From an uncultured Candidatus Saccharibacteria bacterium (GTDB taxonomy: Bacteria > Patescibacteriota > Minisyncoccia > Phycocordibacterales > UBA12088), in NCBI GenBank assembly GCA_964411375.1, contig CAYPKR010000001.1, positions 358,629 through 422,628 of the forward strand: DNA of 64,000 bases, given 5' to 3'. Of this stretch, positions 1,276 through 49,567 are shown in pieces (position 1 is the first letter of the stretch; every line of letters starts with the position of its first letter). A model generated the notes under the pieces. That model was not told the origin of the DNA and did no database searches. It was given only the letters and a program-made list of their open reading frames with translations. A program made the position numbers and the translations under genes.

Positions 1276-1665
1276 ATGAAACTCCGCATCCGTTTTGCCT
1301 TCAAGAAAATATTTGTTTTCGGAGCACTCTTCCTTTCGAGTCCAATTTTGGTGCTTGCACAAGCGCGGACTGGCGCAAGTTTTCCAAATCCAATTGCTGC
1401 GCCTGACCTTACGACATTTCTCACGCTGGTTCTAAATGCGGTCACGCTCATTGTCTTTCCGTTCATCGTGCTTTTTATTGTCTATGCGGGATTCAAGATG
1501 ATTGCAGCGCGAGGAAACCCAGGAGAAATTTCCAAGGCAAAAGAGCAGATAATATACGCAATAATTGGTGCGCTTATCATTCTTGGTGCGCAAGCAATTT
1601 CCTTCGCGATCAAGGGCACCGTCGATACTATTCGTTGCGGTGGTGTTGGCTGTAATCCGCTCTAA
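1276..1665 (+). CDS. small two-TM VirB2/TrbC-like (CPR 'T4SS pilin-like') protein, array member 1
   Basis: 129 aa with a signal peptide, a hydrophobic helix, a short charged loop (ARGNPGEISKAKEQ) and a second helix. The architecture matches the N-terminal domain of ORFs 19076 and 20679. Confidence 0.5.
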   Translation: MKLRIRFAFKKIFVFGALFLSSPILVLAQARTGASFPNPIAAPDLTTFLTLVLNAVTLIVFPFIVLFIVYAGFKMIAARGNPGEISKAKEQIIYAIIGALIILGAQAISFAIKGTVDTIRCGGVGCNPL

Positions 1666-1670
1666 TCCAC

Positions 1671-2009
1671 ATGAATTCCAAGGTCAGATTGTTTCGAAAC
1701 AATATTATTGCGGTAGCAGTCGGTATTGGTACATTTCTTGCCCCACATATTGTCCGCGCCGATCCTCCGACACTTCGCGACATCATCGTCAAAATAACAT
1801 CGCTCATTCAGCTCGCGTCTATTTTGCTCGGTGGGCTCTTGGTTGTGGCGTTTGTGTGGGGTATCGCACGGTTTATCCTGAATGTGGGCGGATCTGACAA
1901 GCGCGCTGCCGATAAGCAATACTTATTTTGGGTAGTTGTCGCGATGTTCGTAATGTTTGGTGTCGTTGGACTCGTCACAATACTTCAAAACACGCTCCTC
2001 AATGGCTAA
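1671..2009 (+). CDS. small two-TM pilin-like protein, array member 2
   Basis: 112 aa with the same signal + TM-loop-TM layout. The 6-nt gap to the upstream gene suggests an operon. Confidence 0.5.
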   Translation: MNSKVRLFRNNIIAVAVGIGTFLAPHIVRADPPTLRDIIVKITSLIQLASILLGGLLVVAFVWGIARFILNVGGSDKRAADKQYLFWVVVAMFVMFGVVGLVTILQNTLLNG

Positions 2010-2412
2010 ACAATTCATACAAAAAGGCGGACTGGCTCTGATGTTGTGCATCAGCATTGTTCTTCCGAGTGTTGCGTACGGCGAAGCCACCATCGATGAT
2101 TTGTTGGTACATTCAATTGCTTTCGTAAACGGATATCTTATTTATGTGGCCTTTGCCGCGACATTCCTATTTTTCCTATACGGCATCGCACGGTACATTC
2201 TTGCTTCTGGAGATGATGCAAAAGTGGCGGGACGCCAGCTTATGATCTGGGGTTCGGTCGCTATGTTTATTGTTTCCTCAATTTGGGGATTGGTTGCGAT
2301 TATAAACCGCACGCTCGGACTTCCTGGCCAGCCAGAGGGAACGATTCGTGCGACCTGTGTTCATTTATTTGGTGAAGCACCTACCGAAAGCAATTGTGCC
2401 GATACCAACTAG
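2002..2412 (+). CDS. small two-TM pilin-like protein, array member 3
   Basis: The start is taken at the internal ATG 2002 (MAKQFIQKGG...), giving an 8-nt overlap with the upstream stop (aATGGCTAAa). It has two TM helices flanking a DDAKVAGRQLMIWGS loop. Confidence 0.45.
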   Translation: MAKQFIQKGGLALMLCISIVLPSVAYGEATIDDLLVHSIAFVNGYLIYVAFAATFLFFLYGIARYILASGDDAKVAGRQLMIWGSVAMFIVSSIWGLVAIINRTLGLPGQPEGTIRATCVHLFGEAPTESNCADTN

Positions 2413-2473
2413 CATTTGTGGAGAAGTCACTCGACAAATAATCGATGTACCGTAGCATGTAAGTATTATTTTC

Positions 2474-2842
2474 ATGAATCGACACGCTGTATCTCGAATC
2501 ACTGCAACCGTCGCATCGGTTTTTGTTTTCGCTACTCCGCTTATTACGCTTGCGCAAGGAAGCGATCTTTTTACTGTTGGTCAAGATAGCGCTACCGCAC
2601 TTCTTAATATTCTACAAACGCTGACGCAGGTTGCATTTCTCGCAATAATGGTCGCGTTCTTCTGGGGTCTCGCTAAATACATTTGGGGCGGCGCCGAGGA
2701 TAAAGAGCGCGGAAAAAATCTAATGGTGTGGGGAACGCTTGCCATTTTCGTCGCTGCGTCTATCTGGGGAATTGTGACGGTACTCAAAATCACTTTTGGT
2801 GTTGGTAATGAACAAACAGGCTTTGTACCGCTAGTCATTTAA
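2474..2842 (+). CDS. small two-TM pilin-like protein, array member 4
   Basis: 122 aa with a signal peptide and the conserved motif FFWGLAKYIWGGAEDKERGKNLMVWG...ASIWGIV shared with members 5 and 6. Confidence 0.55.
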   Translation: MNRHAVSRITATVASVFVFATPLITLAQGSDLFTVGQDSATALLNILQTLTQVAFLAIMVAFFWGLAKYIWGGAEDKERGKNLMVWGTLAIFVAASIWGIVTVLKITFGVGNEQTGFVPLVI

Positions 2843-2857
2843 CAGTAATAAATCAGT

Positions 2858-3223
2858 ATGACGACATCTAAAATACGATCAGCACTTATGCACGGCGTTG
2901 TCGCCGTAGGTTCTCTTGTTCCAGTTTTGGTTTCCGCACAAGCAAATGCACTCGACACAGTCGACCAGAGTACGATAACCCTTCTCACGATCGTCTCGCG
3001 CCTCTCCCTTATCGCATTCATGGCGATTCTCCTCTTTTTCTTCTGGGCAATAGCTAAATACATTTGGGGTGGCGCTGAGGATAAGGAAGAAACGAAGAAT
3101 CTCCTTATCTGGGCGGTGGTCGCACTGTTTGTCGCCGCTTCAATCTGGGGAATCGTTCAAGTGCTTAAAACAACCTTCGGGGTTGGCGACGAGACATCAG
3201 TCAATATTCCCCGCGCATTCTAA
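2858..3223 (+). CDS. small two-TM pilin-like protein, array member 5
   Basis: 121 aa carrying the motif FFWAIAKYIWGGAEDKEETKNLLIWA...ASIWGIV; a close paralog of 2474 and 3319. Confidence 0.55.
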   Translation: MTTSKIRSALMHGVVAVGSLVPVLVSAQANALDTVDQSTITLLTIVSRLSLIAFMAILLFFFWAIAKYIWGGAEDKEETKNLLIWAVVALFVAASIWGIVQVLKTTFGVGDETSVNIPRAF

Positions 3224-3318
3224 GCTTTATTTGTCCACACCGGATCCTTGCATGAAGGGCGGGAGGCGGTATTCTAAAGGGGAATTAGTCGCAATAGTTT
3301 ATTAATATTTTTGTATTC

Positions 3319-3672
3319 ATGAAAAAACTTATTTCGCTTTCCGCTCTCGGTATGTTTGCTCCGGCGCTTGCATTTGCACAGCTCACTGGTGCAGGTAATA
3401 CCATCACCGCAGCAGTAACAACGTTGGGAAATGTTGTTAACGCCCTTATTCCAATCGCGTTTGCTGCCGCACTCCTCTTCTTCTTCTGGGGTCTCGCACA
3501 GTACATCTGGGGTGGTGCCGAAGAGAAGGAAAAGGGTCGCAACCTCATGATCTGGGGCGTTGTTGCGCTCTTCATCATGGCGTCGATCTGGGGAATCGTT
3601 GGTGTGCTTCGAACAACGTTTGGTATTACTGCAAACCCATCGACTGCACAGGTTCCAGGCGTAACTCCGTAA
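3319..3672 (+). CDS. small two-TM pilin-like protein, array member 6
   Basis: 117 aa carrying the motif FFFWGLAQYIWGGAEEKEKGRNLMIWG...ASIWGIV. Confidence 0.55.
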   Translation: MKKLISLSALGMFAPALAFAQLTGAGNTITAAVTTLGNVVNALIPIAFAAALLFFFWGLAQYIWGGAEEKEKGRNLMIWGVVALFIMASIWGIVGVLRTTFGITANPSTAQVPGVTP

Positions 3673-3691
3673 TCTCTCCATTTTCCCTCAT

Positions 3692-3970
3692 ATGGGATTT
3701 CCTACTTCCGTATCGGAATTTATGAATCGGGTTGATGCCGCAATCATCAACCCGATTTTGGCATTACTCTTTACTGCAGGCATGCTGTACTTCCTCTGGG
3801 GCGGATTCCAGTTTATTGTCGGCGCAGCAGAACCATCAAAGCGCATTGAAGGGAAGCAGCACATGCTATGGGGTGTTATTGGTATGTTCGTAATGTTTTC
3901 GGTCTACGTCATTCTTCGAGTCGGACTTACGACATTTGACATAACGCCAGCACCAGGGTTGCCGCTCTAA
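3692..3970 (+). CDS. small two-TM pilin-like protein, array member 7 (no signal peptide)
   Basis: 92 aa with a diverged version of the same core (LWGGFQFIVGAAEPSKRIEGKQHMLWG). Confidence 0.45.
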   Translation: MGFPTSVSEFMNRVDAAIINPILALLFTAGMLYFLWGGFQFIVGAAEPSKRIEGKQHMLWGVIGMFVMFSVYVILRVGLTTFDITPAPGLPL

Positions 3971-3998
3971 AAATTCGCCCATTTCTCCAAAAGAAAAA

Positions 3999-4036
3999 GC
4001 AGGACGTGCGCGTTGCGCATGTCCTGCTTGTGGTAT
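3999..4036. terminator. bidirectional hairpin terminator between convergent genes
   Basis: Stem GCAGGACGTGCGC/GCGCATGTCCTGC (one G-U pair) followed by TTGTGGTAT. It lies between the end of the pilin array (+) and the stop of the 4084 (-) gene. Confidence 0.5.
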
Positions 4037-4083
4037 GTCGGCGATAATTGCCGACATACCGAATGTACTTTTTCCACATGCAG

Positions 4084-5325
4084 CTAACTTCTCTTCACCT
4101 GGATATGTATCTCCGCGGTGGGAGAGGTGTTTATAGGGCTTTTGGCGTACTTGAAGGTGAGACAATGAGCGTCTCTGCCTTCTCGTGTCCATGGCCTAGC
4201 TTTCCACCAAGGAATCCAGTCGACCGTAGTCGATGTCCACCGCTTCACTCCGATTTCCCAAGCCGCGATGGCTGGATCGGAATCCCAAGTGACAGATAGC
4301 CCGGGATTAAAGCAGAACTCCCTTTGTCCTCCTTTCTTGAGTGGTCCGGTACGTAAGTCTGAATCGGGGGTCTGCAACGTGACCTCTTGTCCCCGGATAA
4401 CCGGCTTCGTGAGGCTCTCTCCGAGATTTCTCACCAGGTTGGCACCCGGAACTGTTGGCAGGTGGATGTATCCCGAAGGTCCAGGCTTTGTCCCTTCGAT
4501 GATGGTGATCCTGTTCACGTCATCTGCTGTCGCATGTTGCTTCAGGATTCTGACGTTCGCACTCTCACCTGAACCACCGATCACATCGCCGACTTCATAG
4601 TCACCGAAGTGAAGTTGGCCGTCATCTCCGAGCGCACAGGGGCTTAATCCTGTTTTCGGATCGACTGCACAAACAGTCCTCCAACCCCAGAACAATTGAG
4701 CTGCTGCCACAAGAAGAATAATGGCGAGCATACCGACTGCAAATCGCCTTGCTTTAGGAATCAAATCCGCAGCGATAAGGGCGATAACCGTGGCAACAAT
4801 TGCTGCGGGATTTTGCTGGTACCAGAAGAGTAAATTTCTTCCGAACAGGGAAAATATCGCCCCAGCGAATATCACTCCCAGGAGGCATGCAAGAAATGCA
4901 GTTCCTCGACGAGGTGTTACACCTTGTTCCGCAAATCCACCTCTGATGGCGGAGATAAGAAATAAGAGTGCTATCACTCCGCCTCCTATCCACATCCCGT
5001 ATTCTCTTGCGAAGTTCTGGGTAGTGGCGAGGGAGGGAATGTATGGGGTTATATGACCCCACCAATACCAGGAGGCGGCAGCAAGGATACTGAAGAGTCC
5101 AAACCAACCGATTGTACTGAATTTCCTCCTTGGCCGGTCTTGTGTCTCCGCGGGATGCGTGACAATAGTTTGGGTCGTTGTTCCCGCCCTTCTCCTTCTC
5201 GGAGGCGGGGGAGCTGGCGCTGCACCGGTTCCTACCGGTGCAGCGTCTGCGGTTGCAGCAGTCGTCGTTACTGCTCCTTCTTCCGGTCTCGACACTGTCG
5301 CCGAGTTCCTTGTTATCCTTGGCAT
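4084..5325 (-). CDS. membrane protein with a Pro/Ala-rich N-terminus, about 5 TM helices and a C-terminal soluble domain (possible NfeD-like partner of the SPFH protein)
   Basis: 413 aa lying in a high-GC island directly downstream of the SPFH gene (16-nt gap). The membrane-plus-C-terminal-beta-rich layout recalls NfeD/YuaF proteins, but I see no recognizable motif. Confidence 0.4.
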   Translation of the reverse strand: MPRITRNSATVSRPEEGAVTTTAATADAAPVGTGAAPAPPPPRRRRAGTTTQTIVTHPAETQDRPRRKFSTIGWFGLFSILAAASWYWWGHITPYIPSLATTQNFAREYGMWIGGGVIALLFLISAIRGGFAEQGVTPRRGTAFLACLLGVIFAGAIFSLFGRNLLFWYQQNPAAIVATVIALIAADLIPKARRFAVGMLAIILLVAAAQLFWGWRTVCAVDPKTGLSPCALGDDGQLHFGDYEVGDVIGGSGESANVRILKQHATADDVNRITIIEGTKPGPSGYIHLPTVPGANLVRNLGESLTKPVIRGQEVTLQTPDSDLRTGPLKKGGQREFCFNPGLSVTWDSDPAIAAWEIGVKRWTSTTVDWIPWWKARPWTREGRDAHCLTFKYAKSPINTSPTAEIHIQVKRS

Positions 5326-5340
5326 CCTCTCTTCCCTTGC

Positions 5341-6654
5341 TTACGGTGAGTTGCCCTCCGCTGGTGGCGGTGGGGAGTGGTCGGTGTTTGCAGAACCAGA
5401 ATTAGCCGGTGTACCCCTAAAGATCGCACCTGCAAGTCCTGCCATTTCCTCGATACCCCTTGCTCCGAAGAAAAAGGTAGCCTTATCTCCGAGCGCTTTA
5501 GTGGTTTCGAGCCCTACGGCGATGCGAGATACATCGTCCAGAGAACCATCAGCTTGTGTTAAACCAGCCTTGATGCCCTCCAGTCGTGCAGTGCTCGCAG
5601 CACCGTCACCTTCGCCTTCCCTCGTTCGCTTAACCCTGTCTGCTTCAGCAGCCAGAACCGTAGCTCGTGCCGCCGCAACCGCCTGAGCGGGCCTCTGGAG
5701 CTGAGTATTCAGCTCATGTGACAGACCAATTGCTTTGATCGCTCCCTGAGTTATTTTTGTACCCCAGGTTTTAGAACGATCTTGCAGTCGAGCGAGGATT
5801 TGATCGCTGAACTCCCTCACCCTGACCATCACTTCCGCGAGCGTATGTGAAGGCAAGAGTTCAGTCAGTGTACGAGTGACCACGTCTTCGAGCAGCCGTT
5901 TTGCTGTGTCGAGATCACGAAGCTCTCGTACAAAGACTCGAGGATTCAGTATCTGAAAGGCAAATATAGCAGATACCTCCTGAGTCACACGCTGCGCAAG
6001 CGGGTCGGGATTGTTTGCATCCCCACCTTGCGCAAATGTGATTCGGAAGACCGGCCTTCTGCCTGGCGGGACGGGAACCCTGTCCTCGTTTCGTACCAGA
6101 AATTCTGGTTCATCCGGCACCTCCTTTTGGATTTCTCCGCTCGGAAAGGTTATTAACGAGCAGAGTCCATAGGGAAGAAATACCGGACCGCTCGTAACGT
6201 TCATGATTGGACGATTGAGCAGGAGTACGACCCCCACTTCATCCGGACCAACGGTGATAACCGAGAGCCCGTCTTCGTCTATCGTGAAGAAGCTGGCAAG
6301 TATATAAGCCAGCACCAAGAGACTCGTAAGAATGCTTGACCAGAGATGGTTATACCCCTGCATATACTGGGCGAGTCGGTGAGGAATAACGTAGAGGGTG
6401 AGATAGACAGCACCGCAAACGAGAACGATCGCGATAAGCGACCATACGACTCTGCGGATAGTCTCGCCGAATCCCGGCGCACCCTCATTTCCGTTTTGGA
6501 TGGGGGAAGGAGCTGGTGGAGTTCTTCGACGCGCACGCATTTTTAGTCCGTAGCGCACGATGACCCCCAAGAATGAGATAGTTACCAAGAAGAAGATTCC
6601 ACCAAAGACGAGATTGCCTGCTCCAAAGGAGTCGACAAGCTGATTGGTGTCCAT
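5341..6654 (-). CDS. SPFH/band-7 (stomatin/prohibitin/HflK-C-like) membrane protein
   Basis: 437 aa with an N-terminal TM region, a core segment (AQRVTQEVSAIFAFQILNPRVFVRELRDLDTAKRLLEDVVTRTL...) and an Ala-rich helix (QAVAAARATVLAAEADRVKRTREGE) typical of SPFH domains. GC is about 57-60%. Confidence 0.65.
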   Translation of the reverse strand: MDTNQLVDSFGAGNLVFGGIFFLVTISFLGVIVRYGLKMRARRRTPPAPSPIQNGNEGAPGFGETIRRVVWSLIAIVLVCGAVYLTLYVIPHRLAQYMQGYNHLWSSILTSLLVLAYILASFFTIDEDGLSVITVGPDEVGVVLLLNRPIMNVTSGPVFLPYGLCSLITFPSGEIQKEVPDEPEFLVRNEDRVPVPPGRRPVFRITFAQGGDANNPDPLAQRVTQEVSAIFAFQILNPRVFVRELRDLDTAKRLLEDVVTRTLTELLPSHTLAEVMVRVREFSDQILARLQDRSKTWGTKITQGAIKAIGLSHELNTQLQRPAQAVAAARATVLAAEADRVKRTREGEGDGAASTARLEGIKAGLTQADGSLDDVSRIAVGLETTKALGDKATFFFGARGIEEMAGLAGAIFRGTPANSGSANTDHSPPPPAEGNSP

Positions 6655-6767
6655 GTTCCTAACCTTCCATTGTCAGAGAGCGGGTACGGCAGTGTCCTGC
6701 GTCATGCAGAAGGTGGCCGTTCTATCGAGTTTATATCATATAAATATTAAAAAGTCAAGGCATTTTC

Positions 6768-7988
6768 ATGGCTCTACTAGAGGGGAAATGGCGTTTGATT
6801 GCTACAATAGCCGCATCCATGAACTGGTGTAAAACTGCCCTACAACGCATGCCGATTGAGGTATTTGTCCTCGGTATCCCATCATTTTTTCTCATAGTTG
6901 GAGGAATTGTATATCGACTATTTTTTATGGCCGGTTCGGATGTAAACACGATCTTTACTACCTTCGCGGCACAGTCAATTGGTGGCGCGTGGTTTTGGAT
7001 GGCGTTTCTCGCCATCATTTGTTGGCTTATCTTGAGAAGTGGCAGAATGATCAATCGTTTTTTGGCGGAACATGATTCAACCGAAGCATCACTTCGATCG
7101 GAATTCCCGAGTCTTCAAAAAAAAATCGGTATGCTGTGGGGAAGCGCCGGATTCATTTTGGCGCTGACCGCACTTTGCTCGATTGCAGTCGCGCTCTCTA
7201 TTACCGCGCTGTTTCATACCGCATCAGCAGCACGGACGATTTATTTTTCACACACACTCTCCGAGATCGAATATGGAGTCTTTGGAGCATATCCACATTT
7301 TGCTATCATCGAATTTTTCGAACGATTTCCATCACTCGATTACTTTATTGTGAATGGATACAACGGACTTTTTGTGTGTGTATCATTTACGTTTTTGCTT
7401 TCACTCGCAACATCGACCCGAATCTTCCGAAGGTACGTACTCGCGTTTTTTATTACTTTCGGCATCGCACTTCCAATTTGGTTTATTTTTCCTCTAGTCG
7501 CACCGCTTGAACTACATGTCGATAATGTATTTCGACAATCCCAATCATCCGCTGTCGTTGCCGCACTTACTGAGTACAATGCTGAACCACTTCCACCAGC
7601 ATCGGAAATGTATCGCAAACAACTTGAAAAATTATGGATTGCACCAGACGGCGATTGGCTTGCGGTCAGTGCGTTTCCAAGCATGCATGCGGGGTGGGCA
7701 CTTATCACCATCATTACGTTATTTTCAATCGATACATTACTTGGACTTATATTTGTACCGACTTTTATTTTCTGCATTATCGGAACGGTGTATACGCTGA
7801 ACCATTATGTTTCCGATGTTGCTGCCGGTTTCTTGGTAGGGATACTTGCGTTTTGGATTGCGGAGCGCGTACTTCGATTCGAGGAAAAATATCGAAGTGA
7901 CGGAGGAAATTTCTTTCTCGCCGCAACGTTGATGCAAACAGATTTAAAGGATCTGTGGAGAAAGGTAGGGAGGTTTTTGAAGGTGTAG
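6768..7988 (+). CDS. PAP2-superfamily integral membrane protein (phosphatase / IPC-synthase-like)
   Basis: 406 aa and polytopic. It carries the motifs FPSMHAGWA (PSGH-like) and LNHYVSDVAAG (H-x3-D) of the PAP2 fold. The start codon is uncertain. Confidence 0.5.
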   Translation: MALLEGKWRLIATIAASMNWCKTALQRMPIEVFVLGIPSFFLIVGGIVYRLFFMAGSDVNTIFTTFAAQSIGGAWFWMAFLAIICWLILRSGRMINRFLAEHDSTEASLRSEFPSLQKKIGMLWGSAGFILALTALCSIAVALSITALFHTASAARTIYFSHTLSEIEYGVFGAYPHFAIIEFFERFPSLDYFIVNGYNGLFVCVSFTFLLSLATSTRIFRRYVLAFFITFGIALPIWFIFPLVAPLELHVDNVFRQSQSSAVVAALTEYNAEPLPPASEMYRKQLEKLWIAPDGDWLAVSAFPSMHAGWALITIITLFSIDTLLGLIFVPTFIFCIIGTVYTLNHYVSDVAAGFLVGILAFWIAERVLRFEEKYRSDGGNFFLAATLMQTDLKDLWRKVGRFLKV

Positions 7989-8032: not shown

Positions 8033-8105
8033 CCGCCCATAGCTCAGTTGGTAGAGCGACTCCCTCTTAAGGAGACGGTCCAAGGTTCGAGTCCTTGTGG
8101 GCGGA
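8033..8105 (+). tRNA. tRNA-Lys (anticodon CTT)
   Basis: Hand-folded cloverleaf: acceptor CCGCCCA/TGGGCGG, D-stem GCTC/GAGC, anticodon loop CTCTTAA, T-arm CAAGG-TTCGAGT-CCTTG, discriminator A. No CCA is encoded. Confidence 0.8.
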
Positions 8106-8150
8106 CAAGCGTTAAGAAATCCTGATCTACGTCAGGATTTTAGCTTGTCC
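8103..8150. terminator. nested perfect hairpin overlapping the tRNA-Lys 3' end
   Basis: Outer stem GGACAAGC/GCTTGTCC and inner stem AAATCCTGA-TCTACG-TCAGGATTT. The left arm begins inside the tRNA acceptor 3' strand. Confidence 0.55.
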
Positions 8151-8384: not shown

Positions 8385-8409
8385 CTTTACTCAACTTCGT
8401 TTCGTTCGG

Positions 8410-8496
8410 TGCCGAGAGTGGGAATCGAACCCACACGAGCGTTTATAGCCCTCGGGATTTTAAGTCCCGTATGTCTACCAATTCCATCATCTCGGC
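8410..8496 (-). tRNA. tRNA-Leu (anticodon TAA), long variable arm
   Basis: The reverse complement folds with acceptor GCCGAGA/TCTCGGC, anticodon stem CGGGA/TCCCG with loop CTTAAAA, a long variable arm, T-arm GTGGG-TTCGATT-CCCAC and discriminator A. Confidence 0.8.
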
Positions 8497-8503
8497 GTAC
8501 TCG

Positions 8504-9097
8504 CTATTGTAAATTAGTACCCCAATATTGTCTCGATGCAAGTATTGCAATAAATCCGCACCCTATGAATGAATAGATAGGATAGGCTAAGTTATAGGCT
8601 GCGTACGAGGAAACTGCAAGAATCCCGCAGAGTGCGGAAAGGGTGATGAGTGCCCAAGGTAGCAACGCCTCCGACTCGGGCATTCGGTATGTTTTAGTGA
8701 TCGTTGGGATGGTAAAAAATGCATCGCCGATGATTGAAATATAAATTGCAAGTACTGGGTCGTTGGTATACACCCATGCGGCTATTGCCATGATTCCTAT
8801 TAGGAACGCAAGTGTATCAATCCAGTGGTACGCCGTAAGATATTTTTTGTAATAAACCGAGACGCCGAGTGTTAGTAGGCAATTAAAGGTGAATATGGTT
8901 GGAATGACTATCGACCAATCTGCGCCTTTTGAAAACTGCGCAAGAGCCGGAATTGCAGAAAGGAGTGACCAACCTATTTGTGAATAAATATGTGGACGAG
9001 TAGTGCCGTATATAACGCTCCGCAAATAGGGAACCGCCGAAGAAAGCGCAATGCACGTTGCAGCTATTCCGAGTAGTGCGTGGGAATTGATAGGCAT
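8504..9097 (-). CDS. polytopic membrane protein (hypothetical, about 6 TM)
   Basis: 197 aa and hydrophobic throughout. It sits between tRNA-Leu and the second copy of the 44-nt module. Confidence 0.5.
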   Translation of the reverse strand: MPINSHALLGIAATCIALSSAVPYLRSVIYGTTRPHIYSQIGWSLLSAIPALAQFSKGADWSIVIPTIFTFNCLLTLGVSVYYKKYLTAYHWIDTLAFLIGIMAIAAWVYTNDPVLAIYISIIGDAFFTIPTITKTYRMPESEALLPWALITLSALCGILAVSSYAAYNLAYPIYSFIGCGFIAILASRQYWGTNLQ

Positions 9098-9115: not shown

Positions 9116-9320
9116 AATCGGTCACCGATAATTTTGCGTAGCAAAATTTCGTCGACCCCGCCTTACTCATCCATAAGCCAGTCCACGCAGGATCGGTCCT
9201 TACAGGACCAGTATACCGTGCGGATTTTTTCTTCGCCTTCGGCTCGAAAAAAGTCTCGCACGGTTTTCGATTCCCGCACGAACGCTCCCCCGGAGCGTTC
9301 TCGGGCCCCAACTTCGTTGG
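9116..9320 (+). ncRNA. structured non-coding element, copy B (44-nt module + variable hairpins + T-loop copy of tRNA-Cys + CCC-triloop hairpin)
   Basis: 9116-9159 is identical to 8261-8304. There is a GGTCC-TTACA-GGACC hairpin; TTTTCGATTCCCGC is a plus-orientation copy of the tRNA-Cys T-loop/T-stem; and there is a GAACGCTCC-CCC-GGAGCGTTC hairpin. Confidence 0.5.
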
Positions 9321-9392
9321 AGTCCACGGCGGGAATCGAACCCGCGTATAAGGGTTTTGCAGACCCATGCCTTACCACTTGGCCACGTGGAC
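9321..9392 (-). tRNA. tRNA-Cys (anticodon GCA)
   Basis: The reverse complement folds with acceptor GTCCACG/CGTGGAC, anticodon stem TGGGT/ACCCT (a 27-43 U-U pair) with loop CTGCAAA, T-arm GCGGG-TTCGATT-CCCGC and discriminator T. Confidence 0.75.
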
Positions 9393-17382: not shown

Positions 17383-18066
17383 TTAATTTTTGGAAGATTC
17401 GGGTTTATTCGTTTTCTTCTTTTGATCAGCCATTGCCCTTACATTCTCCAGACGTTGCTGTCGTTCATAACGTGTCACATACCAATCCTCAACTAAATTC
17501 TCTATGAGACCTATAAGTAATTGCGCCTCGTTTGGATCAATTTCGATAATTACATTTACGTCCTTTTCCATGTGTGCACCGATATTCCCTACGGAACGTA
17601 CAGCGTCAATAGCGTCCCAAGTATCAATATTCACCTGATCTTTTATGGCTTCAATCTCATTTTTTAACATTCCTGATTCTACTTTCCAGAAATCTCGAAT
17701 CATTCCTTGCAGAGCACGCCTAGCAAGGGTAGCCGAAGCTTTCGGACTTAGATCTCTAATTCTGCAGGCTTCGTAGTAATCCTCTTTGATAGCAACTGGT
17801 ATGTATTCTGGCAATACTTTGGCCGAAGACTCTGGAAGCAGTTGCCAGGTTTGAGTAGTAGGCCCCTCTTCCCCCTGCACTAATCTTGTGAGTCTCGTTT
17901 TTAAATAAAGCTCGTGGCACATAGGATTGGGACATCGTACAGCAAAAAAACCAACGCCCACAGCACCCTTTTTCGTAGCATTGATATAGACACTTCTCCA
18001 GTGATTAAAGCTGTCATTTCCCACAATGGTGGAGTGGTGACCACAGTATGGACATGTGTAATTCAT
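17383..18066 (-). CDS. Zn-ribbon + DUF4145 domain protein (defence-island-associated family)
   Basis: N-terminal CPYCGHH...CPNPMC ribbon and C-terminal ...AVRSVGNIGAHMEKDVNVIIEIDPNEAQLLIGLIENLVEDWYV, matching the R-x2-GN-x-GAH core of DUF4145. The start is taken at ATG 18066 (GAGGG RBS), because the upstream GTG-extended frame to 18207 overlaps the tRNA-Tyr-associated hairpin region. Confidence 0.5.
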   Translation of the reverse strand: MNYTCPYCGHHSTIVGNDSFNHWRSVYINATKKGAVGVGFFAVRCPNPMCHELYLKTRLTRLVQGEEGPTTQTWQLLPESSAKVLPEYIPVAIKEDYYEACRIRDLSPKASATLARRALQGMIRDFWKVESGMLKNEIEAIKDQVNIDTWDAIDAVRSVGNIGAHMEKDVNVIIEIDPNEAQLLIGLIENLVEDWYVTRYERQQRLENVRAMADQKKKTNKPESSKN

Positions 18067-18191
18067 AATACCCTCAATATATTCCTCTCTTCTTTGTATG
18101 TCCAAAATATTTTGAGAGGGAGTTTCGACCCCTACAGGGTCAGTCCAGGTTGTATGATCTTTTCTTCCTTCGGTCGAAAAGCTCGACAACC

Positions 18192-18242
18192 TTTTCGAAT
18201 CCCTCACGAAAGTTCCCCCGGAGCTTTCTCTGTGCCACCAAA
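18192..18242 (+). ncRNA. inverted pseudo-copy of the tRNA-Tyr 3' half with a CCC-triloop hairpin insert
   Basis: TTCGAATCCCTC is a plus-orientation copy of the tRNA-Tyr T-loop/T-stem, followed by the GAAAGTTCC-CCC-GGAGCTTTC hairpin and GTGCCACCA, which resembles the acceptor 3'-CCA. Confidence 0.45.
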
Positions 18243-18272: not shown

Positions 18273-18358
18273 TGGTGCGCCGGGAGGGATTCGAACCCCC
18301 GTAGGCATAAGCCGCTTGGTTTACAGCCAAGTGCGATTGACCACTCCGCCACCGACGC
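18273..18358 (-). tRNA. tRNA-Tyr (anticodon GTA), long variable arm, CCA encoded
   Basis: The reverse complement folds with acceptor GCGTCGG/CCGGCGC (a G-U pair), anticodon stem CTTGG/CCAAG with loop CTGTAAA, a long variable arm, T-arm GGGGG-TTCGAAT-CCCTC and ACCA. Confidence 0.75.
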
Positions 18359-33755: not shown

Positions 33756-34310
33756 CTAGTTCGACTGCATTCGTAGATGATTGGCGAGCGCTTTACGTCG
33801 CCGTGCGACTTCGGCCTGACTTAGCCTTGAAGGGACGCTTCTGACGGCGTCCACTGGATCCGGCATCTTGGCTGTGATTGTCGGCTGGGGCTCGTGTCGA
33901 ATATCGAACCGAATGACCCGTTTGCCTGCCGGTGGGATGACCCAATCCGTTGTTGCAGGCCTTGAAAAGGCAACGTGCATGCCCTCCTCGAAATCGAGGT
34001 CGAGGCCGATCACCCGGTCGCCGACATGATCGGGCCACGTCAAACCCTCGAGATGACGGAAATACCTTTGACGATTCTGCCGGGCTTTTGCCGCCAGCTC
34101 GTCGTAGGCCTGCCCCCGAAGGAGGGCGATCTCGGGGTTCATGCCCCGATGGTCCGGCACCTGCTCGATCGGGACATATGGTCCCAAACCACGTGCGCCG
34201 GTGTCGTAGGTTGCTGTACTAAACATCGCCATTTCCCTGTCTGGCGTTTTTAGGACATCAGACCGTCTGAGTCCAGAAAAATATATACCATACTGAAGGG
34301 GTATTGTCAA
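33756..34310 (-). CDS. hypothetical protein in a GC-rich segment
   Basis: 184 aa with GC clearly above neighbours (about 58%). No motif recognized. Confidence 0.35.
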   Translation of the reverse strand: MTIPLQYGIYFSGLRRSDVLKTPDREMAMFSTATYDTGARGLGPYVPIEQVPDHRGMNPEIALLRGQAYDELAAKARQNRQRYFRHLEGLTWPDHVGDRVIGLDLDFEEGMHVAFSRPATTDWVIPPAGKRVIRFDIRHEPQPTITAKMPDPVDAVRSVPSRLSQAEVARRRKALANHLRMQSN

Positions 34311-48764: not shown

Positions 48765-49148
48765 ATGGCAACAGGACCAGACCTTAAGGCTATAGCCCAA
48801 TCGCGTCTCAATACGGCTAAGATGTTGATGGAGACTGAAGATTGGCATGGCGCTAGTTATATGCTTCCTCATGCTCTTGAATGCGCATTAAAAGCAGCAA
48901 TCTGTAAGACTCTTCACTTAGGAGTATACCCAGACAACGAGAAGAGCACCGCTATAAGAACTTTTTTTGCCACCCACTATTTTGTCCAGCTCCTTGTTGC
49001 GTCAGGTTTACAAGATATCATTAGTCCAACGGGGGCAAAGAAGGTAGACCAGAACTGGGCTGACTTCACTCTCGTGTTTGCAGGAAACTGGCCTGAAATG
49101 GAAGATACGAAGAAAAATATGAACGAGATCTTAGTTTTGCGGAATTGA
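48765..49148 (+). CDS. HEPN-domain protein
   Basis: The N-terminal pattern A..DL..A..MLMETEDWHGASYMLPHALECALKAAICK matches the HEPN helix-1/2 consensus (...QAvEKaLKA...), and R-x5-H (RTFFATH) is present. Confidence 0.55.
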   Translation: MATGPDLKAIAQSRLNTAKMLMETEDWHGASYMLPHALECALKAAICKTLHLGVYPDNEKSTAIRTFFATHYFVQLLVASGLQDIISPTGAKKVDQNWADFTLVFAGNWPEMEDTKKNMNEILVLRN

Positions 49149-49567
49149 AACAACTCGAAAGTCTCCGTGCCATGGATCCGCTTCACTTTGAAAAATATAT
49201 AGTGGATATGTTCAGAAAGAAAGGATATGAAGGAAAAGAAGGTGCTGGACGAGGTGATCACGGGATTGATGGCGAAATATGGAGTGGACACGCGATATTC
49301 GCCCTTCAGATGAAAAGATATCAGATAGGACACAATGTGGGAGAAAGAGAGATACGAGATTTTCATGGCAGTATTTCAAAGCTCCATAAATATTTAGGTG
49401 GAAAGTTTATAACCACCAGTGATTTCACTCCGGCTGCACGAAAGTGGGCAGAGGATACACCAATGATTGAATTATGGAATGGTGAAAAACTACTCGAAGA
49501 GTTAGGAAAAGTGGAAGCTCCTGTTCATATCGCTGACCGAGCTTTTGGATCGAAAAGAAATATCTAA
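49145..49567 (+). CDS. Mrr-cat / restriction-endonuclease-fold (PD-(D/E)xK) protein
   Basis: FEKYIVDMFRKKGY...GDHGIDGEIW...ALQMKRY gives D...D...Q-x-K, as in Mrr_cat (PF04471). There is a 4-nt ATGA overlap with the HEPN gene. Confidence 0.6.
   Translation: MKQLESLRAMDPLHFEKYIVDMFRKKGYEGKEGAGRGDHGIDGEIWSGHAIFALQMKRYQIGHNVGEREIRDFHGSISKLHKYLGGKFITTSDFTPAARKWAEDTPMIELWNGEKLLEELGKVEAPVHIADRAFGSKRNI

What the first reader, a model, noticed from the sequence alone, without database searches (positions are those of the whole stretch)
4040..6700. High-GC island (about 57-60% versus about 46% background) carrying an SPFH/band-7 protein and a putative NfeD-like membrane partner
GC rises sharply between the terminator at 3999 and about 6700, covering two minus-strand genes. 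The upstream gene (437 aa) has a clear SPFH core and a Gly/Pro-rich tail. The downstream gene (413 aa) has a Pro/Ala-rich N-terminus, about 5 TM helices and a soluble C-terminal domain. That layout recalls NfeD/YuaF proteins, which are co-operonic with stomatin-like genes. The compositional jump and the Actinobacteria-like Pro/Ala-rich low-complexity stretches argue for horizontal acquisition of a membrane-microdomain scaffold pair.
Basis: partly seen in the sequence, partly recalled or inferred. Interest (0 to 1): 0.5.

Follow-up and report, generated by a model that had tools for sequence, protein, structure and literature searches.

The report
Fast-evolving SPFH membrane-scaffold operon, not foreign
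The two genes are a real stomatin-like membrane-scaffold gene and an orphan membrane partner that sit in a slot conserved across Paceibacteria (CPR bacteria); they are an old, rapidly diverging resident of this lineage, not a recently imported actinobacterial island, and the partner could not be shown to be NfeD.

Summary
The two minus-strand genes exist as described: partner 4084-5325 (413 aa) and SPFH 5341-6654 (437 aa). They are 15 nt apart. The GC rise is real but overstated: 53.4% against 47.0%, not 57-60% against 46%.

The 437-aa protein is a genuine SPFH/Band_7 protein, closest to stomatins. The 413-aa protein is a multi-pass membrane orphan. It has no NfeD signal and no relative among 1.84 billion representative proteins.

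The horizontal-transfer reading is largely refuted:
- A sister genome (L001) has the same operon in the same place.
- 10 of 12 Paceibacteria loci have a convergent gene pair in this slot, after the pilin array and before RbfA/IF-2. The upstream gene is SPFH-like in at least 8.
- No tRNA, repeats or mobility genes border the pair.
- Arg codons are AGR-rich and CGC-poor, the opposite of Actinobacteria.

One compositional anomaly remains. The pair has the most atypical tetranucleotide signature in the window, and protein composition does not explain it. That trait is shared with L001 and, more weakly, with other relatives, so it predates their divergence.

Best reading: a vertically inherited, very fast-evolving SPFH scaffold operon with a hypervariable partner that is probably surface-exposed.

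The parts
5341..6654 (-). SPFH/Band_7 (stomatin-like) gene, 437 aa. It has three N-terminal hydrophobic segments, an SPFH domain at about residues 135-339, an Ala/Glu-rich helical region with a conserved EGEG motif, and a Gly/Pro/Ser-rich tail.
   Evidence: ORF. Pfam Band_7 E=7.7e-13. PDB profile hits to stomatins at E about 3e-9 and to QmcA at 1e-3. Ortholog P0003/L001 at 52-55% identity. Full-length homolog in L015 at E=6e-29.
4084..5325 (-). Orphan partner gene, 413 aa. It has a Pro/Ala/Arg-rich disordered N-tail (about 1-68), about 5 TM helices (about 69-215), and a roughly 200-aa non-helical C-terminal region with 4 Cys.
   Evidence: ORF. It matches only itself among 5.8 billion clusters and 1.84 billion representatives. 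The only detectable homolog is the syntenic L001 partner (C-terminal 84 aa at 31%, E about 2e-6 to 3e-7). TM and Cys analysis. Helices 71-217 in the model.
5326..5340 (-). 15-nt spacer between the SPFH stop and the partner start, with a purine-rich SD-like stretch (GCAAGGGAAGAGAGG). The same 15-nt spacing is found in L001.
   Evidence: Sequences printed. Gene coordinates.
6655..6760 (-). Promoter and 5' leader of the operon. The -35 TTGACT lies at about 6758-6753, followed by a 17-nt spacer containing TG, then the -10 TATAAA at about 6735-6730. The leader carries a two-tier hairpin at about 6720-6686.
   Evidence: Alignment with L001 shows a nearly invariant promoter and leader block, although the CDS is only 52% identical at protein level. 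Fold (z=-1.7 and -1.4, not significant on energy alone). No Rfam match.
3997..4060 (.). Two adjacent hairpins (3997-4029 and 4032-4060) in the gap between the convergent last pilin gene (ends 3970) and the partner gene (ends 4084). They are likely bidirectional terminators.
   Evidence: Inverted repeats I5 and I9. Terminator-like site 4031-4061.

Best explanation
This is a vertically inherited, lineage-typical two-gene operon of Paceibacteria (CPR). It encodes a stomatin-like SPFH scaffold and a co-translated orphan membrane partner that evolves very fast.

Shown:
- The upstream protein has a Band_7 domain and N-terminal hydrophobic anchors.
- The two genes are 15 nt apart behind one conserved sigma-70-like promoter and leader.
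- The operon sits in a conserved chromosomal slot: gyrA - methyltransferase - SBP - pilin array - [pair, convergent] - RbfA - IF-2. The slot is filled in 10 of 12 related loci.
- Divergence is far faster than in the flanks.

Inferred, the mechanism:
- The SPFH protein is anchored by a TM hairpin, with its SPFH domain and Ala/Glu-rich helices in the cytoplasm. Like stomatin, QmcA and flotillin, it oligomerises into a ring or cage that fences off a membrane patch.
- The partner's 5-TM bundle sits in or at that patch.
- The partner's Arg/Pro-rich N-tail faces the cage side.
- The partner's Cys-paired C-terminal domain is displayed on the cell surface. Diversifying pressure there (host, phage or neighbour contact in an episymbiotic lifestyle) would drive the extreme sequence turnover.

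The GC bump is mostly a by-product of Ala/Gly/Pro/Arg/Trp/Thr-rich composition. The atypical codon and oligonucleotide usage is a long-standing trait of the genes in this slot. It is typical of weakly expressed, fast-evolving accessory genes and is not a mark of recent import.
For: SPFH identity: Pfam Band_7 at E=7.7e-13; stomatin and QmcA in the PDB.

Operon: the 15-nt gap is conserved in L001, and so are the promoter and leader.

Synteny:
- L001 has PAP2 - SPFH - partner - 7 pilins - SBP - MT, as in the window.
- The same slot holds a convergent pair in L009, L010, L013, L015, L017, L018, L019 and L020. It is empty in L016 and L021.
- Pfam finds Band_7 in L015 and L018.
- The L015 SPFH is a full-length homolog (E=6e-29 to 8e-32), although its SBP is only 48% identical.
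- A second upstream family (L017, L019, L020, and L010 weakly) gives only SPFH proteins as its top four PDB hits.

Rate gradient, window against L001: 'end' gene 93%, SBP 87%, MT 85%, pilins 66-87%, PAP2 61%, SPFH 52%, partner about 25-31% in patches.

Composition:
- GC expected from amino acids is 0.537, observed 0.535 (partner); expected 0.519, observed 0.536 (SPFH).
- GC3 is 0.51 against 0.454+-0.062.
- The pair is GC-richer than its flanks in 7 of 8 loci, across genome GC of 40-55%.
- AGR-rich, CGC-poor Arg usage relative to the flanks recurs in 5 of 6 loci.
- The tetranucleotide outlier status is shared by L001 (z=-8.1) and, more weakly, by L009, L015 and L013.

No island hallmarks were found.

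Topology: KR-rich loops alternate as expected for N-in/C-out, and 7 of 8 partners have an even Cys count in the C-terminal region.
Against: - The nucleotide signature really differs from the host's. Tetranucleotide r=0.49 against 0.835+-0.066. Recoding the same proteins with host codon usage gives 0.72+-0.04. CGCG and GCGC are 0.46x and 0.61x against 2.0x and 2.1x, and rhoCG is 0.95 against 1.35. Arg codon usage differs at p=6e-14. This fits a foreign origin as well as it fits weak selection.
- The other low-rhoCG genes in the window include defence-type genes (Mrr endonuclease, HEPN, DUF4145), which are often mobile.
- Homology across the slot is proven only for window/L001/L015 (SPFH) and window/L001 (partner). 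L009 and L013 are unresolved. hhalign between the two SPFH-like families was negative. Partner similarity beyond L001 is no better than shuffled sequences.
- Cage formation, the physical pairing and the topology are all inferred. Both AF2 models were unusable (pLDDT 46 and 35).
- The background for the codon statistics is only 59 genes from one 64-kb window.
Confidence: 0.6

Rival explanations
1. Ancient horizontal acquisition or xenologous replacement. The SPFH-partner cassette of the window/L001 clade was imported into the pre-existing slot, from an unsampled donor or from a distant CPR lineage, before the two genomes split. It still carries the donor's nucleotide signature.
For: - It is the strongest tetranucleotide outlier in both the window (z=-5.3 to -5.8) and L001 (z=-8.1).
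- The protein sequence does not explain this.
- The CG/GC oligomer and Arg-codon usage are unlike the host's.
- Identity drops sharply in the pair relative to the flanks.
- Hinderhofer et al. 2009 (PMC2636767) argue that SPFH operons are often laterally transferred.
Against: - No donor exists in the databases. The SPFH has only L001 as a close relative among 5.8 billion clusters, and the partner has none.
- The next-closest SPFH is the positional ortholog in L015.
- The promoter and leader are conserved in place.
- No mobility genes, tRNA or repeats lie at the borders.
- The same direction of codon and GC deviation is seen in the slot genes of distant relatives with different SPFH families.
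- GC3 of 0.51 and AGR codons exclude a recent high-GC actinobacterial source.
Confidence: 0.2
2. The 413-aa partner is an extremely divergent NfeD-type protein. It would work as NfeD does with stomatin, QmcA or flotillin: its TM helices and soluble domain dock onto the SPFH ring and promote or regulate oligomerisation.
For: - It is co-operonic with a stomatin-like SPFH and has a multi-TM plus soluble-domain layout.
- The top PDB hit of the partner profile, out of 177,635 sequences, is YbbJ, the NfeD partner of QmcA (E=0.24).
- The literature shows that some NfeD homologs (YuaF, YqiJ) were recognisable only by structure (PMC2636767).
Against: - The YbbJ match is not significant, covers only a hydrophobic hairpin, and vanishes with the single sequence.
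- There is no PF01957 hit at E<=1 and no NCBIfam hit.
- The C-terminal region is about 200 aa with 4 Cys and is predicted extracytoplasmic. The QmcA-YbbJ cage protrudes into the cytoplasm (PMC13086221).
- Partners in the same slot of relatives range from 156 to 618 aa with 1 to 12 TM segments.
Confidence: 0.1
3. The pair is a functional accessory of the adjacent T4SS-type pilin array, for example a membrane platform or assembly and quality-control factor for the pilus. This could be true together with the best explanation.
For: The pair lies immediately after the 4-7 tandem T4SS_pilin genes in 10 of 12 loci, across SBP identities of 44-100%. SPFH microdomains have been reported to harbour T4SS components in Agrobacterium (title and abstract of PMC8656257).
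Against: - The pair is convergent to the pilin genes and has its own promoter and terminators.
- CPR genomes are highly syntenic, so adjacency alone is weak evidence.
- Two loci keep the pilin array but lack the pair (L016, L021).
Confidence: 0.15

Closest known systems
Prokaryotic stomatin-like SPFH proteins (SPFH1 of Hinderhofer et al. 2009: P. horikoshii PH1511, E. coli QmcA/YbbK)
   Same: It has a Band_7 domain above the Pfam threshold, and the best solved-structure matches are stomatins and QmcA. It also has an N-terminal membrane anchor, an Ala/Glu-rich helical segment after the SPFH domain with a conserved EGEG motif, and a membrane partner in the same operon.
   Different: - It has three N-terminal hydrophobic segments rather than one.
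- It has a long insertion inside the SPFH domain (Pfam aligns 205 residues to 173 model positions) and a Gly/Pro-rich tail.
- It is only 23-26% identical to the nearest outgroup SPFH proteins (HflK-like).
- NCBIfam has no match.
- Its partner is not a recognisable NfeD.
NfeD family (PF01957; YbbJ, YuaF, PH0471/PH1510)
   Same: The gene shares an operon with an SPFH gene and encodes a multi-pass TM region followed by a non-membrane C-terminal domain.
   Different: - No sequence match to the NfeD OB-fold domain was found.
- The C-terminal region is about three times longer, contains Cys, and is predicted to lie outside the cell.
- The gene lies downstream of the SPFH gene.
- It has a long disordered Pro/Ala/Arg-rich N-tail.
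HflK/HflC
   Same: The TVGPDEVGVV motif at the start of the SPFH domain is shared with HflK-type proteins. These were the only distant hits in the metagenome scan.
   Different: HflK/HflC are two paralogous single-TM SPFH proteins with periplasmic domains. Here the second gene is not an SPFH protein, and the SPFH domain is predicted to be cytoplasmic.

Membership tests
SPFH / Band_7 superfamily (437-aa protein) | SPFH (Band_7, PF01145) domain above the curated threshold | tested here: met
   49.3 bits against a cutoff of 23.6, E=7.7e-13, residues 135-339. The L001 ortholog scores 57.6 bits. PDB stomatins match at E about 3e-9.
SPFH / Band_7 superfamily (437-aa protein) | N-terminal membrane anchor preceding the SPFH domain | tested here: met
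   Three hydrophobic segments at about 6-36, 68-90 and 105-125 (sequence). The hairpin is conserved in L001 and L015.
SPFH / Band_7 superfamily (437-aa protein) | C-terminal helical or coiled-coil region that builds the oligomeric ring or cage | tested here: inconclusive
   An Ala/Glu-rich segment (AAEADRVKRTREGEGDGAA) aligns with the stomatin helix, and E346-G349 are invariant in three orthologs. The AF2 model has pLDDT 35, so there is no structural support. Oligomerisation cannot be tested here.
NfeD (413-aa partner) | C-terminal NfeD/OB-fold beta-barrel domain (PF01957) | tested here: not met
   No hit at E<=1 in Pfam and none in NCBIfam. The PDB sequence and profile searches do not match any NfeD soluble domain. 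Fold-level similarity could not be tested because the model has pLDDT 46 overall and about 30 in this region.
NfeD (413-aa partner) | Shares an operon with an SPFH gene | tested here: met
   Same strand, 15-nt gap, conserved in L001.
NfeD (413-aa partner) | Several TM helices N-terminal to the soluble domain | tested here: met
   Helical block at residues 71-217. Four to five hydrophobic segments. There is a weak, non-significant similarity between the last TM hairpin and YbbJ residues 31-98 (E=0.24).
NfeD (413-aa partner) | Soluble domain on the same side of the membrane as the SPFH domain (cytoplasmic in QmcA-YbbJ) | tested here: inconclusive
   The positive-inside pattern is N-tail, loop 2 and loop 4 with 3-4 K/R each, against 1 each in loops 1 and 3. 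With 5 TM segments this gives N-in/C-out. Four Cys in the C-terminal region fit an extracytoplasmic location. The SPFH domain is predicted cytoplasmic, because the loop before its TM hairpin is Arg-rich (sequence). This is a crude prediction only, and it leans towards 'not met'.
Horizontally acquired genomic island | Nucleotide composition deviating from the host | tested here: met
   GC is +6.4 points. Tetranucleotide r=0.49, z=-5.3, and this is not explained by the protein sequence. The CG/GC oligomers and Arg codons differ. However, GC3 is within 1 sd, and most of the GC excess comes from amino-acid composition.
Horizontally acquired genomic island | Closest homologs in a different lineage from the flanking genes | tested here: not met
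   The only homologs found are positional orthologs in Paceibacteria. No actinobacterial or other close hit was found.
Horizontally acquired genomic island | Absent from the same site in related genomes | tested here: not met
   The pair is present in L001, and the slot is occupied in 10 of 12 related loci.
Horizontally acquired genomic island | Mobility hallmarks at the borders (tRNA target, direct repeats, integrase or transposase) | tested here: not met
   The nearest tRNA is at 8033, beyond PAP2. There are no flanking direct repeats. The neighbouring genes are a pilin and PAP2.

The most novel reading that the evidence does not exclude
Paceibacteria may carry a class-wide, hypervariable 'SPFH cage plus surface-displayed partner' module fixed next to their pilin array. 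In this reading the cytoplasmic scaffold is retained, in at least two very divergent SPFH families. The co-translated partner turns over so fast that orthologs become unrecognisable, ranging from 156 to 618 aa with 1 to 12 TM segments and an extracellular domain with paired Cys. The module would then be a diversifying cell-surface system for host attachment or phage evasion in episymbiotic CPR bacteria, organised by an SPFH microdomain. It would be functionally analogous to, but not homologous with, SPFH-NfeD pairs.
Probability: 0.15. Interest if true: 0.55.

Novelty: new variant of a known kind. Interest (0 to 1): 0.3.

Why it matters
SPFH scaffolds and their operon partners are known, so the basic finding is ordinary. 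The horizontal-transfer story, which made the finding attractive, does not hold.

What is mildly useful:
- It documents an SPFH operon whose partner is not a recognisable NfeD.
- That operon sits in a conserved chromosomal slot across a CPR class and evolves several-fold faster than its neighbours.
- It is a worked example of how a GC bump and a Pro/Ala-rich sequence can mimic an imported island.

If the surface-module reading were true, it would give a handle on how ultra-small episymbiotic bacteria vary their cell surface.

Tried and rejected
1. Structure route. An AF2 model of the partner from the single sequence gave pLDDT 46. An AF2 model of the SPFH from a 2-sequence alignment gave pLDDT 35. 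Both are unusable, so no fold search was run.
2. Searches for partner relatives. The word-indexed search and the exhaustive phmmer search of 1.84 billion representatives found only the protein itself. PADLOC, NCBIfam and PHROGs gave nothing meaningful. A Cas8e hit at E=0.011 and 12.6 bits in PADLOC was dismissed as noise.
3. Genome-collection scans with the SPFH and PAP2 patterns found nothing. The metagenome scan returned only distant HflK/HflC pairs.
4. Linking the non-Pfam upstream proteins to SPFH. The HMM of three orthologs, single-sequence hhalign and profile-profile hhalign were all negative. Only the PDB profile search of family B gave coherent, though marginal, SPFH hits.
5. Partner C-terminal domain homology across loci. 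The MAFFT alignment is unconvincing, and the HMM scores no better than shuffled sequences. I therefore rejected my by-eye impression of a shared terminal beta-strand motif.
6. Actinobacterial origin was rejected on GC3, Arg codon usage and the absence of any hit.
7. A defence-system reading was considered because the other atypical genes are Mrr and HEPN. It was rejected because there is no PADLOC hit.
8. Rfam search of the conserved leader gave no match, and its folding energy is not significant.
Full report
OBSERVATION.
The window contains the two minus-strand ORFs described. The partner is 4084..5325 (413 aa) and the SPFH is 5341..6654 (437 aa). They are 15 nt apart. GC of 4040-6700 is 53.4%, against 47.0% for the rest of the window. 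This is the highest of all 2.66-kb windows, at about 4 sd above the mean. Only two 400-nt windows (5001-5600) reach 57.5-57.8%. The GC rise is therefore real and gene-bounded, but about half as large as stated. Two hairpins (3997-4029 and 4032-4060) fill the convergent gap between the last pilin gene and the partner gene.

WHAT THE PROTEINS ARE.
The 437-aa protein passes Pfam Band_7 (49.3 bits, E=7.7e-13, residues 135-339). A profile of it and its ortholog matches solved stomatins (E about 3e-9) and QmcA (1e-3). It has three N-terminal hydrophobic segments. After the SPFH domain comes an Ala/Glu-rich segment with an invariant EGEG motif.

The 413-aa protein has no Pfam hit at E<=1 other than a 12-bit chance match to an unrelated viral family. 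In particular there is no NfeD hit. It has no NCBIfam, PADLOC or PHROGs match. It has no relative in the word-indexed search of 5.8 billion clusters or in an exhaustive phmmer search of 1.84 billion representatives. Its layout is:
- a Pro/Ala/Arg-rich N-tail;
- about 5 TM helices (residues about 69-215);
- a roughly 200-aa non-helical C-terminal region with 4 Cys.

ORGANISM AND CONTEXT.
Source names on homologs of the flanking solute-binding protein (SBP) place the window in Paceibacteria/Parcubacteria. The neighbourhood runs as follows:
- SBP (cut by the window start);
- seven tandem small membrane-protein genes, of which the three I scanned are T4SS_pilin (1276-3970, + strand);
- the pair (convergent);
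- PAP2 phosphatase;
- tRNA-Lys and tRNA-Leu;
- a 197-aa membrane protein;
- tRNA-Cys;
- RbfA, IF-2, DUF4446 and an aminotransferase.

TEST OF THE ISLAND HYPOTHESIS BY SYNTENY.
The SPFH has one close relative, P0003 (55% identity). Its contig, L001, shows the same order: PAP2 - SPFH - partner (332 aa) - 7 pilins - SBP - methyltransferase.

Pairwise protein identities between the window and L001 form a gradient:
- 'end' gene 93%
- SBP 87%
- methyltransferase 85%
- pilins 66-87%
- PAP2 61%
- SPFH 52%
- partner about 25-31%, in patches only (C-terminal 84 aa at E about 2e-6)

Anchoring on SBP homologs at decreasing identity, I read ten further distinct loci. The order gyrA - MT - SBP - pilin array - [slot] - RbfA - IF-2 - DUF4446 - aminotransferase is conserved. 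The slot holds a convergent gene pair in 10 of the 12 loci, counting the window. It is empty in L016 and L021.

The upstream slot gene falls into these groups:
- Pfam Band_7 in the window, L001, L015 and L018.
- The L015 protein is a full-length homolog of the window's (E=6e-29; E=8e-32 to L001), although its genome's SBP is only 48% identical.
- A second family (L017, L019, L020, and L010 weakly) gives only SPFH proteins as its four best PDB matches: PH1511 stomatin at E=0.005, 3bk6, 2rpb and QmcA. Direct hhalign against the first family was negative.
- L009 and L013 remain unresolved.

The downstream genes share an architecture. They have 1 to 12 hydrophobic segments, followed by a non-membrane C-terminal region that carries 2 or 4 Cys in 7 of 8 loci. 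Beyond window/L001, however, their sequence similarity is no better than that of shuffled controls.

No tRNA, direct repeats or mobility genes border the pair. The promoter (TTGACT, 17 nt, TATAAA, with TG upstream) and a leader of about 70 nt are almost invariant between the window and L001. This argues that the operon has stayed in place while its coding sequence diverged.

COMPOSITION IN DETAIL.
GC3 of both genes is 0.51, against 0.454+-0.062 for the window's genes. The excess lies in GC2 for the partner (0.55 against 0.42) and in GC1 for the SPFH (0.63 against 0.54).

Using the window's own synonymous preferences, the amino-acid composition predicts GC of 0.537 for the partner (observed 0.535). 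For the SPFH it predicts 0.519 (observed 0.536). The background residual sd is 0.020. Ala, Gly, Pro, Arg, Thr and Trp are enriched; Lys, Glu and Asn are depleted.

- r to the rest of the window is 0.49 against 0.835+-0.066, the lowest of 112 windows.
- Recoding the same proteins with host codon usage gives 0.72+-0.04, like recoded control genes. Real control genes score 0.84-0.92.
- The host over-represents CGCG (2.0x), GCGC (2.1x) and CpG (rho 1.35). The pair shows 0.46x, 0.61x and 0.95.
- Arg codons are 53% AGR and 5% CGC, against 16% and 33% in the background (p=6e-14).

The pair is not unique in this. About 5 of 59 other genes have equally low rhoCG, among them an Mrr-type endonuclease, a weak HEPN match and a DUF4145 protein.

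Crucially, the same traits recur in the relatives:
- The pair is GC-richer than its flanks in 7 of 8 loci.
- Arg usage is AGR-up and CGC-down in 5 of 6 loci.
- The pair is the tetranucleotide outlier in L001 (z=-8.1), and the lowest or near-lowest segment in L009, L015 and L013 (z about -2.2 to -2.4). It is not an outlier in five other loci.

The signature is therefore older than the window/L001 split, and it is partly a property of whatever occupies this slot. It is incompatible with a recent actinobacterial source. An ancient import into the window/L001 ancestor cannot be excluded.

NfeD QUESTION.
SPFH1-type and SPFH2-type genes commonly share an operon with NfeD, and some NfeD homologs were recognised only from structure (PMC2636767). 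The hypothesis is therefore reasonable. Here, though:
- The defining OB-fold domain is not detectable by sequence.
- The one suggestive result is that the top PDB hit of the partner profile is YbbJ, the NfeD of QmcA. It is non-significant (E=0.24), is limited to a TM hairpin, and is lost with the single sequence.
- The positive-inside pattern and the paired Cys predict that the partner's C-terminal domain lies outside the cell. The SPFH domain is predicted inside (and sequence reading). The QmcA-YbbJ cage is cytoplasmic (PMC13086221).

I therefore do not file the partner under NfeD. A structurally cryptic relationship remains possible, at about 0.1.

MECHANISM (INFERRED).
By analogy with solved SPFH assemblies, the SPFH protein should form a membrane-anchored oligomeric ring or cage on the cytoplasmic face. 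The partner, translated from the same mRNA, would be its client or adaptor. Its TM bundle would sit in the enclosed patch, its basic disordered N-tail would face the cage, and its variable disulfide-bonded domain would be on the surface. The extreme turnover of the partner and the fast evolution of the SPFH fit diversifying or relaxed selection on a surface-related module. A link to the neighbouring pilin array rests on adjacency only.

VERDICT.
The genes are real, and the SPFH call is correct. NfeD membership is not supported. The actinobacterial horizontal-transfer interpretation is not supported. The compositional anomaly is real in kind but smaller than claimed, and it is shared with relatives. 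This is a lineage-specific variant of a known kind of operon and is of modest interest.

LIMITS.
- Codon and oligonucleotide backgrounds come from one 64-kb window, and the genes were called crudely.
- Topology rests on Kyte-Doolittle hydropathy and K/R counts only.
- Both AF2 models failed.
- The survey covers 12 loci.

Noticed in passing
window 1276-3970 (+): Seven tandem small membrane-protein genes (92-151 aa). The three I scanned with Pfam (1276-1665, 3319-3672, 3692-3970) are T4SS_pilin/TrbC-VirB2-like. The precomputed Pfam marks on the identical locus L002 call two more, and 1671-2009 and 1957-2412 have no hit. An array of 4-7 such genes directly follows the SBP gene in all 12 related loci examined. 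Neighbouring copies share 72-78% identical DNA blocks (D1, D2).
   Followed up: partly
window 6655-6760 (-); L001 1415-1515: The promoter (TTGACT, 17 nt, TATAAA) and a 5' leader of about 70 nt with a two-tier hairpin (about 6720-6686) are almost invariant between the window and L001. The downstream protein is only 52% identical. The loop sequence differs while the stems are kept. There is no Rfam match, and the folding z-scores are only -1.7 and -1.4. This may be a regulatory leader.
   Followed up: partly
window 6768-7988 (+): The PAP2-family phosphatase lies divergent to the SPFH operon. Its true start is probably Met18 (about 6819), because the L001 ortholog aligns from there. PAP2 occupies this position only in the window and L001. 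In more distant relatives the pair is followed, after a gap or a few small or other genes, by RbfA where the locus reaches that far.
   Followed up: partly
whole window: The host genome has a strong genomic signature. CGCG and GCGC are about 2-fold over-represented, rhoCG is 1.35, and AAAA/TTTT is 2.3-fold over-represented. A minority of genes lack the CG/GC over-representation.
   Followed up: partly
window 48765-49567 (+): Two adjacent small genes have low rhoCG: a weak HEPN-domain match (127 aa, E=7.5e-4, below the Pfam cutoff) and an Mrr_cat restriction-endonuclease-fold protein (140 aa, E=1e-25). This may be a small defence or toxin-type cassette.
   Followed up: no
window 17383-18207 (-): A DUF4145 protein (274 aa) has the most atypical codon usage among mid-sized genes (rhoCG 0.81, GC 42%). 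It lies next to tRNA-Tyr (18273-18358).
   Followed up: no
window 33756-34310 (-): A 184-aa ORF with no Pfam match is GC-richer than the reported 'island' (56.9% GC, GC3 0.61). The flagged pair is therefore not the only GC-rich coding stretch in the window.
   Followed up: no
L017 12907-13980, L019 12113-13420, L020 13333-14526, L010 7541-8890: The upstream slot genes of these relatives form a separate sequence family with no Pfam hit. The best PDB profile matches of that family are all stomatin or QmcA SPFH domains (E=0.005-0.6). It is probably an unrecognised, very divergent SPFH branch in Paceibacteria.
   Followed up: partly
window 8033-8106, 8408-8496, 9318-9392: tRNA-Lys(CTT), tRNA-Leu(TAA) and tRNA-Cys(GCA) lie between PAP2 and RbfA, together with a 197-aa multi-pass membrane protein (8504-9097) that has no Pfam match.
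   Followed up: no
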